A stretch of 64,000 bases of DNA from Grus americana (Eukaryota). Location: the NCBI RefSeq assembly GCF_028858705.1, contig NC_072878.1, forward strand, positions 4,179,923 through 4,243,922, given 5' to 3'. Shown piece by piece: positions 21,701 through 36,700 of the stretch; the first letter of the stretch is position 1, and each line of letters starts with the position of its first letter. The position numbers were made by a program.

Positions 21701-24700
21701 ATGCACACAGATGCACAGGCAGATACGCACACCTCACCAGACCATTGCCCAAAAGCAGTGGTCACAAATCCCACCTATACCCACAAAATGCACGTCCCTT
21801 GGCCAGTGAGGGGCCAGTGCTGGAGACAACGCCTGCTCCCAGCCCAGCCCAAGAATATCCACATATTAGGAAGTGCCTATTGGACACAGTGATAGGGAGA
21901 GCTCCCACACCCTTACTGGGAAATCTGCATGCTGGGCACCTCTCTGAAGTGCTCTTATGCAGATCCATGCAGGACAGGTCACAAACAAGAGGGACTGGAG
22001 GTCTGCATGCAGTTGCAGGGCTTTAGTAGCTTATTGGGATCACAGAGTTATACTGGGATAGCTCACATGACCCTAGTGATGAAATGAGTGGATACGGGCT
22101 TTTTCAAAAGGATGCGCTGGGAAAGTGAGATGGAGGACTTTCCCTTTATGTGAGACAGTAGCAGATCACAGCCCTAGTCTTCAGGAGAGCTGACTCTGGC
22201 CTGTTCAGAGACCCACATGGAAGAATCCCATGAGAGACTCCTCCACAGAAGAGGGGTCAAGGAGAGCTGGTTGACAATCAAGGTTCACCTCCTCCAAACT
22301 CAACAACCATCCATCAAATGTGAAAAGGAAGCATACAGGAGGTGGAAGCACAGGAAGGTGGCTCAGCAAGAATGCAGAGATGCTGTCCAAGTGTGCAAGG
22401 ATCAGGTTAGGAAAGACAAAGCCCAACTGGAGTTGACTCTGGAAAGGTATGTGAACGGCAACAGGAAAGGCTTTTACAGGTACATCCGCAGCAGAATGAA
22501 CAATACAGAAGGTGTGGGCCTGCTTCTGAATGGGAGTAGGGACTTGGTCACAAAGGACATGCAGAAGGTCGGAGTGGTGAATGCCACCTTCACCTCAGTC
22601 TTCACTGGTAAGACTGGACTTCAGCAATTCCAGGTCCCTAAGACCAATGGGAGACTCATCATAGAATCATAGAATGGTTTGGGTTGGAAGGGACCTCAAA
22701 GATCATCTAGTTCCAACCCCCCCCTGCTGTGGGCAGGGACACCCTCTACTAGACCACGTTGCCCAAAGCCTCATCCAACCTGGCCTTGAACACTTCCAGG
22801 GATGGGGCCTCCACAACCTCGCTGGGCAACCTGTTCCAGTGCCTCACCACTCTAACAGTAAAGAATTTCTTTCTAACATCTAATCTAAATCAACACTCCT
22901 TCAGCTTAAACCCATTACCCCTTGTCCTGTCACTACACTCCCTGATAAACAGTCCCTCACCATCTTTCCTGTAGGCCCCCTTCAGGTACTGGTAAGCCAC
23001 AATTAGATCTCCCCAGAGCCGCCTTTTCTCCAGACTGAACAGCCCCAACTCTCTCAGCCTGTCCTCACAGGAGAGGTGCTCCAGCCCTCTGATCAGCTTC
23101 ATGGCCCTCCTCTGGACTTGCTCCAACAGCTCAATGTCTCTCCTGTACTGGGGACCCCAGAGCTGGAGGCAGTACTGCAGGTGGGGTCTCACAAGAGTGG
23201 AGTAGAGGGGCAGGATCACCTCCCTCGACCTGCTGGTCACGCCTCTTTTGATGCAGCCCAGGACACGGTTGGCTTTCTGGGCTGCAAGCGCACACTGCTG
23301 GCTCATGTTGAACTTCTCATCAATCAGTACCCCCAAGTCCTTCTCCTCGGGGCTGCTTTCAATCCATTCCTTGCCCAGCCTGTAGTCGTGCTTGGGATTG
23401 CCCTGACCCATGTGCAGGACCTTGCACTTGGCCTTGTTGAACTTCATGCGGTTTGCAGAGGCCCACCTCTCCAGCCTGTCAAGGTCCCTCTGGATGGCAT
23501 CCCTTCCCTCCAACATGTCAACCACACCACACAGCTTGGTGTCGTCGGCAAACTTGCTGAGGGTGCACTCAATCCCATTGTCCATGTCGCTGACAAAGAT
23601 GTTGAACAGTGCCGGTCCCAGTACCGACCCCTGAGGAACACCACTCGTCACTGTTCTCCACTTGGACATTGAGCCATTGACCACAACTCTTTGAGTGCGA
23701 CCATCCAGCCAATTCCTTATTATGACGTGAGTAAAGGCAAGTACTGGGAGGGAGATGAGTGGCTCAGCCCAGCATGACTTGGCCCAGGCAGAAGAGGGAC
23801 TTCCCACAAGGATGTGTACCATGCCCTCCTTTGGTGCCTGCTCACATGGGGTTAAACATCTCAGACTCAGCAGATATCAGGGCTAGGGAAACAGGTACCT
23901 GAAGGGGCACCCCTTTCACAAACTCCTTTTGCTGCCTGGGTTGGCAGGCAGGGAGCACAGGACAAGCAGGGATCCAGCACTGCAGGCTCACCTCAATGGC
24001 AGCCTCTCCCCATCCCTGCAGGTAGCAGCTGACCAGATAGTCCCAGCCCAGACACCATCAAGGACTACCCATGAGGCAGCCAGAGAAATTCCCTAATGGG
24101 CCCCAGCTCCCTCACCCCATGATCTCCAGCCAGCAGGTGGGTTGCTTTAGCCTCTTGTACAGCAGCTGTGGTGTAGGTTCTCCAAAATAATTTTCACCAT
24201 GTTCTAGCTCCCGCAGGCTCTTGCTGGTGCTAAGCACCGTGGCCAGGTCCCACACATGGCCAGGTCACATGCCATGGCCATATACCCTGCCTACACTAAT
24301 GGCAGCCAGCTTGGCCAATGAAGACTTGGTGCTAGAGCCAGCACTTGCTCCAAGACCAGCTCTCGTCCTCCTCTGAGCCCATTTCTTCTGAGAAAGGCTC
24401 TTCTCAGTGTGCAATGGAAGGATAATGGAAGAGGAGGGGAAGGGGAAGGGGAAAGGGAAGGGGAAGGGGAAGGGGAAGGGGAAGGGGAAGGGAAGAGGAG
24501 AGGAGAGGAGAGGAGAGGAGAGGAGAGGAGAGGAGAGGAGAGGAGAGGAGAGGAGAGGAGAGAAGAGAAGAGAAGAGAAGAGAAGAGAAGAGAAGAGAAG
24601 AGAAGAGAAGAGAAGAGAAGAGAAGAGAAGAGAAGAGAAGAGAAGAGAAGAGAAGAGTTGAGTTCAGTTGGAAGGGACCTGCAATGATCATTTAGTCTAA

Positions 24701-33700: not shown

Positions 33701-36700
33701 TGCACCCAGTGGGGCTCTATGGACCCAGAGGGTCACCGTGCAGGCCAGGCAGGGGCTCTGGTGCCATACGGACCCCCAGGATCACCATGAGGGCTGGGCA
33801 GGACTCTGGGAGATTTAGGGGCATCCTGGGGCAATGACACACTGGGCAAGGGGCTCTGGGTGCCATGTGGATCTCAGGAGAGCCAAGTCCTGTCCTAGGT
33901 GTATTGCGGCCTCCAAGTCCTGTCTCCTTCCCCAGGTCTCTGCAGAGAGAGAGGGCGGGGGCAAGGCCCTTCTCATGTCCCAGCCGACACTGGGGGTCAC
34001 AGCTTGGGCTCTGTCTTTCAGGACTGGAACTGGTGGTGACACCCCTGTCCTGTCCCCCTCCAGCAGCAGGAGGAGATGATCATCCCTGGACGACTCCACC
34101 AGGTCCCCTGGGAGCCCTGGGCCATTTCCCTCTAATGATCAATAAATCCCTTCAGCAAAGCTATGCTCTGCGGATGTGTGTCGTTTTTTTCCATGTCCCT
34201 TCTCCTTTGCCAGCACCTGGACAGCTGGGTCCTCTACCCCATTCTGGGAGGGGGCGGTGGTTCCCTGCCCCATGGACTCAGCCCTCCTGGCTTCACAGGA
34301 GATTTCAGAGCCCCACACTGGGCCCATGTGCCTTCCTGGATCCCCAGCCCCACACCCTTGTTGGGGGCATCCCCCATCACAGACCAGGAAGGCAGGTCAT
34401 GGGGTCCAGATGCTGGACCGACTTCTTCCTGACCCCACCATGTGTGTCCCAGCTTTGTGGGACTTTGTGTTCTTTATCTCTTGGCTGTGGTTTTGTCTCT
34501 CCAGGCACGCACTAAATTACCACCAGCTTAGGAATTGTTCCCTCACCCTGCATTTGTCATCACGTTTTTCCCTGCGTGTGATGATCTTAAAGCATCTTTT
34601 CCAACCTAAATGATTCTCTGATTCTATGATTTCATGTCTTCAGTGGGATTGACTGCAGGGGAATATTTCCATGGGGGCTGAGAGGACCTGAGAGTCTTCA
34701 GGGGAGCGGATTGCACGCGGGGCTGATGGCCAGCATCATCCTGTGGCTCGTCCCTGGGCTGCAGGGTCGGGGCAGGAACTGTCAGCTGGGAAACCAATAG
34801 AAAAAGGGGAAGCCAGAAACCAAAATTTACAAAGACACAGATGTGGCAGAGCAAACACAGAGCCTATGACAAGAAACATACGTCACTGCTCACAGTGATT
34901 GTTGGGCCATGGAGAAAGCACAGGCACCACTTCCAGGAAGGTCAGCCTGGACTTTGCAAGACTGTGACCCAGGGGGACCCTGGCCTGGGAGGGATGCAGG
35001 AATCGATAGAGCTGTGTGAACCCGTGAGCGATGTGCAGGGGAATGGGGAGCAGGAGGAATAAAGATCAGGGTCAACAGAAAAAGGTATAAAAGAGGCCAG
35101 TCCCATGTAAAATGAAGCCAGTCAGTGCACTTATCTGTCTGAGCCCTGTGCCTCATCGCTGCAGTCTGACCTGTCTTCTTCTATCTTCTTCTTAAGTCTT
35201 TTCTTTAGTATCTCTGCATATTCTCACTCTGTCGTGCTTGTGGGTGTGGGTGTGGGTGGGTGGATGTGCAGGCACCCTTCAAGGATCAAGTGCTGGCTGT
35301 CACCGAGATGTCTGTGTGTGAGAGTGAAAATTTGTGCCAGGTACTGGGGTCCTATCGAGGATTTGAGCACTCCTGGCATGTGGTGTCAGCTACCTGGAGT
35401 CAGTGGGTTCCCAGTGAAGCTACGTGGAGCAAGTGTGGCAGGGTGTCTATAACATGCAGCCAGCGGGGTGGGAACTGTGTGTATCCCTAAATTCAGCTAC
35501 TAGGGGGGACCAGGGTGGGTGAGGTGCCACAGCTGGAGCGGGACCACGGGTCACAGCCATTGTGTCTGGTGCTGGCTGATGGCACAGTGAGGGTCTGTAT
35601 CCCCCCAAACCAGGTGTGCACATGTATTCACCAGCAAACTTCAGGCTAGACCAGCCAGCAAGCAGGGAGACCTCAGGTCTAGGCCAGGGTATCACATAAG
35701 CAAGGTGATACCCTTCTGGTACCTGGGGGGTACCACGAATGTGGGGTGCCCATGGAACAGGTGTGTGAGTCCTGGGTGTCTGCAGCAAGCACTGACCTGG
35801 ACCAGCCAGTGAGTCAGGAACGCATGGGATGGGGAAGGGGTTTTGGTGGGGGTGCTGGGCAGACAGAGGGGCTGTGCCAGTACTCAAGGGATATGTGAAT
35901 GTATGTGCACTTGTGAACCTGCAGAATGTTGTGTGTGTGCTTGCACTAGTGACTTCCTGTCTCTGCCAGCCAAAGAGGAGGAGGGGACATGGCTGTGGGA
36001 GCTGGTGCGCTGAGGGACTATCAGGGAGTGTAGTGACAGGACAAGGGGTAATGGGTTTAAGCTGAAGGAGGGTCGATTTAGATTAGATGTTAGAAATAAA
36101 TTCTTTACTGTTAAGAGTGGTGAGGCACTGGAACAGGTTGCCCAGAGAGGCTGTGGCAGCCCCATCCCTGGAAGCGTTCAAGGCTGGGTTGGATGAGGCT
36201 TTGGGCAACCTGGGCTAGTGGAGGGTGTCCCTGTCTGTGGCAGGGGGGTTGAAACTGGATGATCTTTGAGCTACCTTCCAACCCAAACCATTCTATGATT
36301 CTATGATTCTAATCCTTTAACAATGATGTCATGCTCAGCATTAAAAGCTAAGAGAAAGGGGTGGTGGAGGAGGCATTCATTATTAAGGCATTTATCTACT
36401 GAAACAACCACTGTGTGTGCTGAGGCCCTGCTTCCCAGGAAGTGCTGAACATTGTCTGCTGATGGGAAGCAGAGAATACTTTTTTTGTTTCCTTTGCTTC
36501 CACGTGTGGCCTTTGCTTTTCTTCATTAGGCTGCCTTTCAACCCACAAGATTTCCATCTTAATTTCTCCCCCTCTGTCCTGCTGAGGAGGGGGAGTGATG
36601 GAGCAGTTTGGCGGGCACTTGGCGGCCAGCCAAGGTCAACCCACCACTCTGATGGATGATAGCTTGTTTTTTTGGTAATTGTATAGTTTTTAACGGTTCA

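What the first reader, a model, noticed from the sequence alone, without database searches (positions are those of the whole stretch)
24657..34633. Large near-perfect palindrome with a ~1.77 kb unique spacer in the region upstream of ACADM
Arms of about 3.7-4.5 kb are inverted copies of each other. The inner ~3.3 kb is essentially identical: only two amino-acid differences appear among all the mirrored ORFs. The outer ends, which include the flanking CR1 copies, have diverged and carry indels. Such near-identity is the signature of ongoing arm-to-arm gene conversion, described so far mainly for sex-chromosome ampliconic palindromes. Alternatively the duplication is very recent. Here it sits on what should be an autosomal ACADM locus, and each arm carries a gene model. 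Palindromes of this size are also cruciform-prone and tend to be collapsed or mis-assembled. The structure is therefore both biologically interesting and a possible assembly artefact that needs checking.
Basis: seen in the sequence. Interest (0 to 1): 0.8.

Follow-up and report, generated by a model that had tools for sequence, protein, structure and literature searches.

The report
Gene-carrying palindrome homogenised by gene conversion
A real 9-kb mirror-image duplication in a crane genome carries two head-to-head copies of a small, unnamed secreted-peptide gene that copy-correct each other, a textbook case of a known process rather than a new one.

Summary
The palindrome is real. The core arms are 25948-29174 and 30947-34173. 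They are 3227 bp long, differ at 3 sites, and flank a unique 1772-bp spacer. The flanking CR1 fragments are not part of the arms; the duplicated block is about 25490-34390.

The window comes from a crane. An independent Grus japonensis assembly is collinear with it at 98.4-98.7% and has the same palindrome, so an assembly artefact is unlikely.

Each arm holds a complete 4-exon gene pointing outward. It encodes a 69-aa secreted peptide precursor from an uncharacterised family found across Neoaves.

Gene conversion is shown in two ways:
- Eighteen substitutions separate the two cranes yet are identical in both arms of each species. No site inside the core groups by arm.
- Just outside the core, 8 sites group by arm. 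The next ~150 bp of the arms is only 83-86% identical, so the duplication is old.

The converted tract ends at a microsatellite and a 265-bp deletion. The right arm also gained a 69-bp inverted copy of spacer-edge sequence.

The pigeon has a similar palindrome with different junctions. The owl and macaw loci retrieved show one copy, and two passerines have tandem copies.

This is a new member of a known kind and of moderate interest.

The parts
25948..29174 (-). Left arm, homogenised core. It is the derived inverted copy.
   Evidence: It differs from the reverse complement of 30947-34173 at 3 sites in 3227 nt. It is collinear in reverse with the single-copy owl locus.
30947..34173 (+). Right arm, homogenised core. 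It sits in the ancestral position.
   Evidence: Spacer, arm and right flank are contiguous and orthologous in owl, pigeon, macaw and ENA contig L005.
29175..30946 (.). Unique spacer of 1772 bp.
   Evidence: It has no other copy in the window. It is orthologous to single-copy sequence in pigeon, owl and macaw at 79-83%. Its longest ORFs have no Pfam hit, and there is no Rfam hit. It diverges 1.24% from G. japonensis.
29105..29173 (.). Segment A: ancestral single-copy sequence at the left edge of the spacer, now the innermost part of the left arm.
   Evidence: In pigeon (L001 5504-5567) and macaw it runs straight into the spacer with no arm next to it. The original duplication junction lies at about 29104-29112.
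30948..31016 (.). A 69-bp inverted copy of segment A, inserted at the inner edge of the right arm. This is growth of the arm.
   Evidence: L005 and pigeon read GGAGGGA|GCCCAGG with no such insert. The insert is the reverse complement of 29105-29173 with 1 mismatch. It is also present in G. japonensis.
25640..25904 (-). Left-arm segment that is deleted from the right arm.
   Evidence: It aligns to owl and pigeon but is absent between 34217 and 34228. With the adjacent microsatellite it marks the outer limit of homogenisation.
25490..25639 (-). Outer, unconverted segment of the left arm.
   Evidence: It is 83-86% identical to 34228-34390. Three-way comparison with owl gives 11 left-specific changes, 10 right-specific changes and 14 changes on the owl branch or the shared crane stem, in 152 sites. 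Homology to the right arm and to owl stops near 25490.
34228..34390 (+). Outer, unconverted segment of the right arm.
   Evidence: Same analyses as for the left outer segment. Beyond 34390 the right side stays orthologous to owl.
32251..34146 (+). Right copy of the peptide gene. TATA-like GATAAAT at 32251-32257. CDS exons at 32311-32379, 32980-33015, 33140-33175 and 33436-33504 (TAG). AATAAA at 34141-34146.
   Evidence: Read from the sequence and confirmed by tblastn. Splice sites, reading frame, core promoter and poly(A) signal are conserved in owl and pigeon. Homologous annotated proteins exist in many Neoaves.
25975..27870 (-). Left copy of the peptide gene, the mirror image of the right copy. 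TATA-like motif at 27864-27870. CDS exons at 27810-27742, 27141-27106, 26981-26946 and 26685-26617. AATAAA at 25980-25975.
   Evidence: Exon positions from tblastn. None of the 3 arm mismatches falls in an exon, so both copies encode the same 69-aa product.
34171..34191 (.). Outer boundary of the converted tract, a (TG)n/T-rich patch (mirror position 25930-25950).
   Evidence: Eight sites here group by arm (winL=gjL, winR=gjR), whereas none do inside the core. The boundary lies 25-45 bp after the poly(A) signal.

Best explanation
This is an old inverted duplication in a crane genome, lying between ACADM and NTAQ1. A 3.7-kb block holding a complete small secreted-peptide gene with 1.4 kb of its upstream DNA was copied in reverse. 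The copy was inserted about 1.8 kb upstream of the original, so the two genes are head to head.

Since then the two copies have repeatedly repaired each other by intrachromosomal non-allelic gene conversion. Inferred mechanism: a break in one arm is repaired by synthesis-dependent strand annealing using the other arm as template. This keeps 3.2 kb at 99.9% identity.

Conversion is bounded on the outside by a heterology: a variable microsatellite plus a 265-bp deletion in the right arm. Beyond that barrier the arms have drifted to about 85% identity. On the inside conversion is bounded by the unique spacer.

At least once, repair synthesis ran past the inner end of the left arm. It added a 69-bp inverted copy of spacer-edge sequence to the right arm, which lengthened the palindrome.

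Shown directly: the structure, its presence in two species, concerted substitutions, conversion in both directions, the boundary, and the 69-bp extension.
Inferred: the molecular repair pathway, the age, and that both gene copies are expressed.
For: 1. Structure. Arms of 3227 nt with 3 mismatches, a unique 1772-bp spacer, and no other copy in the window.

2. Independent assembly. Grus japonensis GCA_045298695.1 is collinear with window 14770-39211 at 98.4-98.7%. It has the same palindrome, with arms 99.1% identical and a 1792-bp spacer.

3. Concerted evolution. In a four-way alignment of the arm core, 18 sites have winL=winR differing from gjL=gjR. No site groups orthologous arms. Eight arm-grouping sites sit at 34171-34191. 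With four outgroups, at least 8 changes are derived in both window arms and at least 4 are derived in both G. japonensis arms.

4. Both directions, short tracts. At 31283, 31287 and 31311 only gjL keeps the ancestral state. At 31187 only gjR does. The window lineage therefore converted right-to-left and left-to-right within 96 bp.

5. Age. The outer arm segment is 83-86% identical. It carries 11 left-specific changes, 10 right-specific changes and 14 changes on the owl branch or the shared crane stem, in 152 sites. Two shared-derived sites place the last homogenisation there at roughly 0.75-0.86 of the crane-owl divergence. Crane-owl distance is 0.205-0.228.

6. The left arm is not a copy artefact. 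It retains 265 bp that are orthologous to owl and pigeon and missing from the right arm.

7. Arm growth. The 69-bp insert at 30948-31016 is absent from L005 and pigeon, and it is the reverse complement of 29105-29173.

8. A real gene. TATA-like motif, signal peptide, four exons with phase-0 introns and AATAAA are all conserved in owl and pigeon. The family is found in many Neoaves.
Against: - No read-level data could be examined. If either assembly was polished with reads that map ambiguously to both arms, some arm differences could have been erased. Some 'concerted' sites could then be artefactual.
- Only two crane genomes were compared, one individual each. Fixed differences cannot be told apart from polymorphisms.
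- A test for GC-biased conversion in arms versus spacer was inconclusive. The window lineage shows weak-to-strong bias in both the spacer and the arms.
- Arms diverge less between the two cranes (0.71-0.90%) than the spacer and flanks do (1.24-1.32%). This may reflect constraint, but it is also what consensus collapse would produce.
- The age estimate rests on about 150 sites.
Confidence: 0.85

Rival explanations
1. The duplication is very recent, so the arms are near-identical simply because there has been no time to diverge. No gene conversion is needed.
For: There are only 3 differences in 3227 nt.
Against: - G. japonensis, which is 1.3% diverged, shares the palindrome. It has the same junctions, the same 265-bp deletion, the same 69-bp insert and the same outer arm-specific differences.
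- The outer arm segment is 14-17% diverged.
- Eighteen between-species differences are present in both arms.
Confidence: 0.02
2. The palindrome is an assembly artefact, such as a false inverted duplication, a foldback chimera or a misplaced haplotig.
For: The arm difference of 0.09% is in the range of avian heterozygosity. Palindromes are known to be hard to assemble.
Against: - A different species' assembly has the same structure.
- The window has no gaps.
- The spacer is asymmetric and orthologous to other birds.
- The left arm holds 265 bp of orthologous sequence missing from the right arm, plus an outer segment only ~85% identical. Two distinct paralogs must therefore exist.
Confidence: 0.03
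3. The two paralogs are real, but their near-identity and the 'concerted' sites are exaggerated. Consensus or polishing errors, from reads of one arm mapped to the other, would do this in both assemblies.
For: Arms diverge less between species (0.71-0.90%) than the spacer and flanks (1.24-1.32%). This is expected if half of the single-arm substitutions were erased.
Against: - G. japonensis keeps 14 single-arm differences and several arm-specific indels. The window keeps 3 differences, so neither assembly collapses differences wholesale.
- Tightly packed arm-specific differences at 34171-34191 are preserved identically in both assemblies.
- A 9-kb structure is spanned by ordinary long reads.
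- Lower divergence is also expected from constraint on a gene and its promoter.
Confidence: 0.08
4. On origin: the crane and pigeon palindromes descend from a single inverted duplication made before those lineages split. It was later lost in the owl and parrot lineage and rearranged around the spacer.
For: - Columba livia has an orthologous palindrome. Its arms are 197-3451 and 9622-14214 of L001, 97-99% identical, with a 6.2-kb spacer.
- Both palindromes are head to head, and both arms contain the whole gene.
- The outer limits of owl homology lie within about 65-85 bp of each other: owl ~12811 for pigeon against ~12876-12896 for crane.
- Palindrome centres are known to rearrange (PMC8327919).
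- If conversion acted on the crane outer segment before the 265-bp deletion, the duplication is older than the 0.75-0.86 estimate.
Against: - All junctions differ. The pigeon left arm ends at the equivalent of window 28185, not 29104.
- The pigeon left arm lies 2 kb left of segment A, beyond a block (pigeon 5125-5354 = owl 6729-6960, partly matched in macaw) that sits next to a CR1.
- Pigeon arms share 75 bp of sequence not alignable to owl or crane at their outer end.
- Two crane-stem derived sites are shared by both crane arms in the unconverted segment.
- The family duplicates readily and independently, in tandem, in passerines.
Confidence: 0.3

Closest known systems
Primate X- and Y-chromosome palindromes (Skaletsky/Rozen 2003 from memory; Jackson et al. 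2021, PMC8327919; Hallast et al. 2013, PMC3723533)
   Same: - Inverted arms more than 99.9% identical around a unique spacer, with protein-coding genes in the arms.
- Arm identity is maintained by arm-to-arm gene conversion, shown by concerted evolution between related species.
- Structural change is concentrated at the spacer and inner arms. Here that is the 69-bp arm extension and the different inner boundaries in pigeon.
   Different: - The arms are 3.3-3.7 kb, against 8 kb or more (up to megabases).
- The locus lies between ACADM and NTAQ1, which is autosomal in chicken to my knowledge, not on a sex chromosome.
- There is a single gene per arm, of unknown expression.
- My rough estimate of the conversion rate is about 1e-6 to 5e-6 per site per generation. 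That is roughly 100-fold lower than the figure I recall for human Y palindromes.
W-linked palindrome with gene conversion in New World sparrows (Davis et al. 2010, cited in PMC3403216)
   Same: It is a bird palindrome with evidence of conversion between the arms.
   Different: It lies on the non-recombining W chromosome and covers part of a CHD1W intron. The present case is in a region flanked by ordinary genes and carries a complete gene in each arm.
Recurrent kilobase-scale inverted duplications at avian IGH loci (bioRxiv 10.64898/2026.09.05.749481)
   Same: These are also autosomal, in birds, and of kilobase scale (average 2.8 kb). They are inverted duplications that copy whole genes and form palindromes, and they are linked to gene conversion.
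   Different: - That system is a dense array of many V pseudogene inversions used for somatic conversion.
- This is one isolated pair of a non-immunoglobulin peptide gene, with no Pfam domain.
- Here the conversion is germline and evolutionary.
Head-to-head inverted gene pairs evolving in concert, such as Drosophila Hsp70Aa/Ab (from memory, not checked here)
   Same: Two complete gene copies lie in divergent orientation a few kb apart. They are kept nearly identical by gene conversion, and the homogenised tract ends near the gene boundaries.
   Different: The taxon and gene are different. In addition, here the unconverted outer duplicate segment survives, so the age of the duplication and the tract boundary can be read directly.

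Membership tests
Large ampliconic palindrome of the sex-chromosome type (criteria as in PMC8327919) | Inverted repeat arms with more than 99% identity | tested here: met
   3 mismatches in 3227 nt (99.9%); 99.6% over 3271 nt.
Large ampliconic palindrome of the sex-chromosome type (criteria as in PMC8327919) | Arms of at least 8 kb | tested here: not met
   The core is 3.2 kb. The whole duplicated arm is 3.4-3.7 kb.
Large ampliconic palindrome of the sex-chromosome type (criteria as in PMC8327919) | Non-duplicated spacer between the arms | tested here: met
   The 1772-bp spacer is unique in the window and orthologous to single-copy DNA in other birds.
Large ampliconic palindrome of the sex-chromosome type (criteria as in PMC8327919) | Arm-to-arm gene conversion shown by concerted evolution between species | tested here: met
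   18 concerted sites and no arm-grouping sites in the core, window versus G. japonensis.
Large ampliconic palindrome of the sex-chromosome type (criteria as in PMC8327919) | Location on a sex chromosome, with testis-biased gene families in the arms | not testable with these tools
   The neighbours are ACADM and NTAQ1. No chromosome assignment or expression data are available here. ACADM is autosomal in chicken to my knowledge.
Inverted segmental duplication (head-to-head gene pair) evolving in concert by non-allelic gene conversion | Two complete paralogous gene copies in opposite orientation on one chromosome segment | tested here: met
   Promoter, four exons and poly(A) signal are present in each arm, and the genes diverge from the spacer.
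Inverted segmental duplication (head-to-head gene pair) evolving in concert by non-allelic gene conversion | The duplication is older than the identity of the copies implies | tested here: met
   It is shared by two species 1.3% apart. The outer arm segment is 14-17% diverged.
Inverted segmental duplication (head-to-head gene pair) evolving in concert by non-allelic gene conversion | Paralogs within a species are more alike than orthologs between species, and derived changes are shared by both copies | tested here: met
   Within the window the arms differ by 0.09%. Between species they differ by 0.71-0.90%. At least 8 and at least 4 changes are derived in both arms of the two lineages.
Inverted segmental duplication (head-to-head gene pair) evolving in concert by non-allelic gene conversion | A defined tract boundary beyond which the copies evolve independently | tested here: met
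   The pattern switches from concerted to arm-grouping sites at 34171-34191, next to the 265-bp indel.
Assembly artefact (false inverted duplication) | The structure is absent from independent assemblies of the same or closely related genomes | tested here: not met
   The same palindrome is present in the G. japonensis assembly.
Assembly artefact (false inverted duplication) | One arm carries no sequence of its own | tested here: not met
   The left arm has 265 bp orthologous to owl and pigeon that the right arm lacks. The outer segments differ by about 15%.
Assembly artefact (false inverted duplication) | No reads span an arm, the spacer and the other arm | not testable with these tools
   No read data are available. 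A search for independent contigs using junction-spanning ORFs found nothing.
Foldback or TIR-type transposable element | Multiple copies, a transposase or other TE protein in the internal part, and terminal repeats unrelated to host genes | tested here: not met
   There is a single copy in the window. Arms and spacer are orthologous to a single-copy host locus in owl and macaw. The longest ORFs of spacer and arms have no Pfam hits.
Avian IGH inverted-duplication arrays (bioRxiv 10.64898/2026.09.05.749481) | Located in the IGH locus and duplicating V gene segments | tested here: not met
   The arm gene encodes a 69-aa signal-peptide precursor with no Ig or other Pfam domain. The neighbours are ACADM and NTAQ1.

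The most novel reading that the evidence does not exclude
The crane and pigeon palindromes may be one and the same structure, formed before the main orders of Neoaves diverged (roughly 60 million years ago or more, by my own dating). Gene conversion would have maintained it ever since in at least two lineages, around a fast-evolving secreted-peptide gene, while other lineages lost it. 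It would then be far older than the 25-million-year-old conserved primate X palindromes (PMC8327919), and it would be autosomal.
Probability: 0.28. Interest if true: 0.65.

Novelty: new member of a known kind. Interest (0 to 1): 0.4.

Why it matters
The locus is compact and unusually easy to read as an example of palindrome biology outside sex chromosomes. Several features are visible in 9 kb and in two species:
- the converted tract;
- its sharp outer barrier, an indel plus a microsatellite;
- the surviving unconverted remnant, which dates the duplication;
- conversion in both directions;
- a 69-bp extension of one arm into the spacer.

It could serve as a small test locus for measuring germline non-allelic conversion rates in birds, using population long-read data.

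It also brings to light an unannotated or mis-annotated secreted-peptide gene family in Neoaves. The signal peptide is almost invariant, the mature part evolves fast, and copy number changes repeatedly. The arrangement is inverted in cranes and pigeons and tandem in passerines. Only one copy was seen in the owl and macaw loci retrieved.

On the practical side, it shows that gene models here are unreliable. The G. japonensis annotation fuses the arm genes to a CR1 ORF and to NTAQ1.

Tried and rejected
- CR1 fragments as part of the arms: rejected. The right fragment (34506-34658) is absent from owl and unrelated to the left region. The left CR1 lies outside the collinear homology.
- Independent contigs of the same species: I searched with a concatenate of junction-spanning ORFs and found no hits among 8000 candidates.
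- Look-ups of Patagioenas proteins P0001 and P0006: not on record. P0010 gave a rearranged locus with a single exon 1, of limited use.
- GC-biased conversion test, arms versus spacer, polarised with pigeon: inconclusive. The window lineage shows weak-to-strong excess in the spacer as well.
- Macaw as an extra outgroup for the unconverted outer segment: macaw has no homolog of that segment.
- Transposon, non-coding RNA or known protein domain as an explanation: no Rfam hit in 20-40 kb. No Pfam family for the peptide or for the long ORFs of arms and spacer.
- The inverted pair 22658-22959 / 36011-36307 (90-91%) as an outer remnant of the palindrome: rejected. It matches several other copies of a young CR1 subfamily in the window just as well.
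- Exact species of the window: not determined. It is about 1.3% diverged from Grus japonensis.

Full report
**Observation**

The inverted repeat is real and far beyond chance.
- The repeat finder reports arms 25948-29174 and 30947-34173 separated by 1772 nt.
- An exact comparison finds 3 mismatches in 3227 nt, all transitions: 25950/34171, 26401/33720 and 29160/30961.
- blastn extends the match to 25905-29174 / 30947-34217 at 99.6%. Nine of the 12 mismatches fall in the outer 44 bp.
- The window has no N runs. Arms and spacer have no other copy in it.

Outward from the core, the left arm keeps 265 bp (25640-25904) that the right arm lacks. After that, 25494-25639 and 34228-34382 are 83% identical, and homology fades near 25490 / 34390.

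- The left one (24719-25108, minus strand) lies outside the collinear homology.
- The right one (34506-34658) is an insertion absent from the orthologous owl site. It has no similarity to 24400-25500.

**Context**

- ACADM exons lie on the minus strand at 570-4402 (query sequence recalled from memory).
- NTAQ1 exons lie on the plus strand at 42705-42875, 43196-43321 and 51389-51490 (query also from memory).
- The palindrome therefore sits in the intergenic region between two divergently oriented genes, among CR1 fragments and other repeats.

**What each arm contains**

Reading the right arm shows a complete small gene:
- a TATA-like GATAAAT at 32251-32257;
- an ATG at 32311 that opens a signal peptide, MKVAVLSVALLFTILLCTPGDAQ, ending at a GTGAGT donor site;
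- two 36-nt exons, 32980-33015 and 33140-33175;
- a last exon, 33436-33504, ending in TAG;
- AATAAA at 34141-34146.

All introns are phase 0. The product is a 69-aa precursor with RVKR and QKR dibasic sites. The left arm carries the mirror copy. No arm mismatch falls in an exon.

The gene is conserved. Splice sites, reading frame, core promoter and poly(A) region are all retained in owl and pigeon, while the mature part changes fast.

Protein searches found homologs only in Neoaves, all uncharacterised:
- pigeons, snowy owl, red-crowned crane and macaw;
- many passerines and suboscines;
- a shared C-terminal motif, RQKRLxASxDx, in the crane and the house-finch and seaside-sparrow proteins.

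No Pfam family matches.

**Species, and a second assembly**

The G. japonensis gene model P0013 joins this signal peptide to a CR1 ORF almost identical to window 24719-25108.

Its locus, L006 (GCA_045298695.1), is collinear with window 14770-39211 at 98.4-98.7%. The window is therefore from a crane about 1.3% diverged from G. japonensis.

That independent assembly has the same palindrome: arms 99.1% identical, a 1792-bp spacer, and an outer arm segment 81.9% identical. This largely removes the assembly-artefact reading. So does the 265 bp of left-arm sequence that is orthologous to owl and pigeon but missing from the right arm.

**Gene conversion**

I aligned both arms of both cranes.
- The core has 18 sites where the two arms of one species agree and differ from both arms of the other.
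- No core site groups orthologous arms.
- At 34171-34191, eight sites group by arm, with winL=gjL and winR=gjR.

Adding four outgroups (L005, owl, pigeon, macaw) polarises the changes.
- At least 8 changes are derived in both window arms: 31079, 31310, 31380, 31468, 32328, 32389, 32616 and 33687.
- At least 4 are derived in both G. japonensis arms: 31392, 32451, 33872 and 33938.

The duplication predates the species split. Both cranes share the junctions, the deletion, the insert and the outer arm-specific differences. Each concerted change must therefore have arisen in one arm and been copied to the other.

Conversion has gone in both directions over short distances.
- At 31283, 31287 and 31311 only gjL keeps the ancestral state.
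- At 31187 only gjR does.
- The window lineage therefore converted right-to-left and left-to-right within 96 bp.

As a rough inference, arm divergence is 0.09% in the window and about 0.4% in G. japonensis. With a bird mutation rate near 5e-9 per site per generation (my recollection), this suggests about 1e-6 to 5e-6 conversions per site per generation.

**Boundaries and history**

The converted tract ends 25-45 bp after the poly(A) signal, at a (TG)n/T-rich patch followed by the 265-bp deletion. I infer that this heterology blocks conversion.

The 150-bp remnant beyond it allows a rough date.
- It carries 11 left-specific changes, 10 right-specific changes and 14 changes on the owl branch or the shared crane stem, in 152 sites.
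- Two derived sites are shared by both arms.
- Homogenisation there therefore ended at roughly 0.75-0.86 of the crane-owl divergence. Crane-owl distance is 0.205-0.228.
- The palindrome is thus probably tens of millions of years old.

On the inner side, owl, pigeon, macaw and L005 show that spacer plus right arm is the ancestral arrangement.
- Segment A (29105-29173) is ancestral spacer-edge sequence. In pigeon and macaw it runs straight into the spacer.
- The original junction of the inverted copy is therefore at about 29104-29112.
- The window and G. japonensis also carry a 69-bp inverted copy of A (30948-31016), inserted at a site that reads GGAGGGA|GCCCAGG in L005 and pigeon.
- I interpret this as repair synthesis templated by the left arm that ran past the arm end. 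It was then rejoined to the spacer, with 1 bp of possible microhomology.

**Other birds**

- Columba livia has an orthologous head-to-head palindrome. Its arms are 197-3451 and 9622-14214 of L001, 97-99% identical. The right arm carries a 1.4-kb CR1-like insertion, and the spacer is 6.2 kb.
- The pigeon junctions differ from the crane's. The inner ends correspond to window 28185/31936. The left arm lies 2 kb left of segment A, beyond a block shared with owl. The outer ends include 75 bp that cannot be aligned to owl or crane.
- The two pigeon copies encode slightly different peptides.
- Snowy owl and macaw show one copy within the 10 kb on each side of the gene. All three owl contigs end 2-9 kb to the left of the locus.
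- Ammospiza and Coccothraustes have tandem direct copies.
- I judge independent origin of the crane and pigeon palindromes somewhat more likely than a single origin, about 0.7 to 0.3.

**Comparison with what is known**

The behaviour matches primate X and Y palindromes: arms over 99.9% identical, a unique spacer, concerted evolution, and instability at the centre (PMC8327919, PMC3723533).

The arms are below the 8-kb size criterion, and the locus lies between ordinary genes. It is better filed as an inverted segmental duplication evolving in concert.

Bird precedents exist:
- a W-linked palindrome in sparrows (PMC3403216);
- kilobase-scale inverted duplications at IGH loci (bioRxiv 10.64898/2026.09.05.749481).

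Autosomal inverted repeats are also known in human (Warburton 2004, cited in PMC8327919).

**Caveats**

- No reads were available, and only one genome per species was compared.
- A polishing artefact could inflate arm identity. The lower between-species divergence of arms (0.71-0.90%) than of spacer and flanks (1.24-1.32%) fits either constraint or such an artefact.
- The GC-bias test was inconclusive.
- Expression of the gene is untested.

**Verdict**

The recent-duplication and artefact readings are rejected. This is a new member of a known kind and of moderate interest.

Noticed in passing
window 42705-42875, 43196-43321, 51389-51490 (+): These are exons of NTAQ1 (N-terminal glutamine amidase, WDYHV1), so the palindrome lies between ACADM (minus strand) and NTAQ1 (plus strand). 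The query was the human sequence recalled from memory.
   Followed up: partly
L006 (Grus japonensis) 1-6908 and 10001-14395: The deposited gene models look wrong. One fuses exon 1 of the right-arm gene to an Nt_Gln_amidase gene. The other fuses exon 1 of the left-arm gene to a CR1 ORF and is named 'suppressor of SWI4 1'.
   Followed up: partly
window 6594-7619, 12477-13606, 40463-41495, 59432-60563 (all +): There are four direct copies of a ~1.1-kb repeat, 82-92% identical, with long open frames (AKQSRGMRK...). The family was not identified. Another direct pair, 10661-11253 / 61103-61699, is 94% identical.
   Followed up: no
window 20866-21761 (-): ORF fragments here resemble leucine-rich repeats of the NLR / ribonuclease-inhibitor type (for example ...LGDSGTWLLCKRLKHPACWLEKLQ). 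They may be exons or a pseudogene. The resemblance was judged by eye only.
   Followed up: no
window 62145-63998 (-): This looks like an endogenous retrovirus fragment. One ORF is integrase-like (...SSDRGPHFVAEV...WRPQSSGKVERMN...), and a long 428-aa ORF may be an envelope gene. It runs off the end of the window.
   Followed up: no
window 7612-8591 vs 22738-23717; 22658-22959 vs 36011-36307: These are copies of a young CR1 subfamily, 96.5% (direct) and 90-91% (inverted) identical. The inverted pair brackets the palindrome but is not part of it.
   Followed up: yes
L002 (Bubo scandiacus) 1339-3344 vs 7109-9331: The owl has an old direct duplicate of the spacer and promoter region, 60-75% identical, about 6 kb upstream of its single gene copy. 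All three owl contigs that carry the locus end 2-9 kb further left.
   Followed up: partly
L007 (Ara ararauna) 11520-13052: Four to five tandem ~305-bp repeats (88-92% identical) cover the region homologous to window exon 2 and the intron after it. This suggests the peptide-coding region has expanded in the macaw.
   Followed up: no
L008 (Ammospiza maritima) 10001/19092; L009 (Coccothraustes) 10001/11227: Passerines carry two or more copies of the same peptide gene in tandem (direct) orientation, 84-95% identical. They do not have a palindrome.
   Followed up: partly
L010 (Patagioenas fasciata) 9170-9584 and 10216-12496: The band-tailed pigeon locus keeps the outer end of the Columba left arm and the inner part of the right arm. 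It has only one exon 1, as if most of the left arm and spacer had been deleted. Other Patagioenas copies lie on other contigs.
   Followed up: partly
window 24487-24657 and 21224-21292: Long pure microsatellites: (GAAGA)34 next to the left CR1, and (GGAA)17.
   Followed up: no
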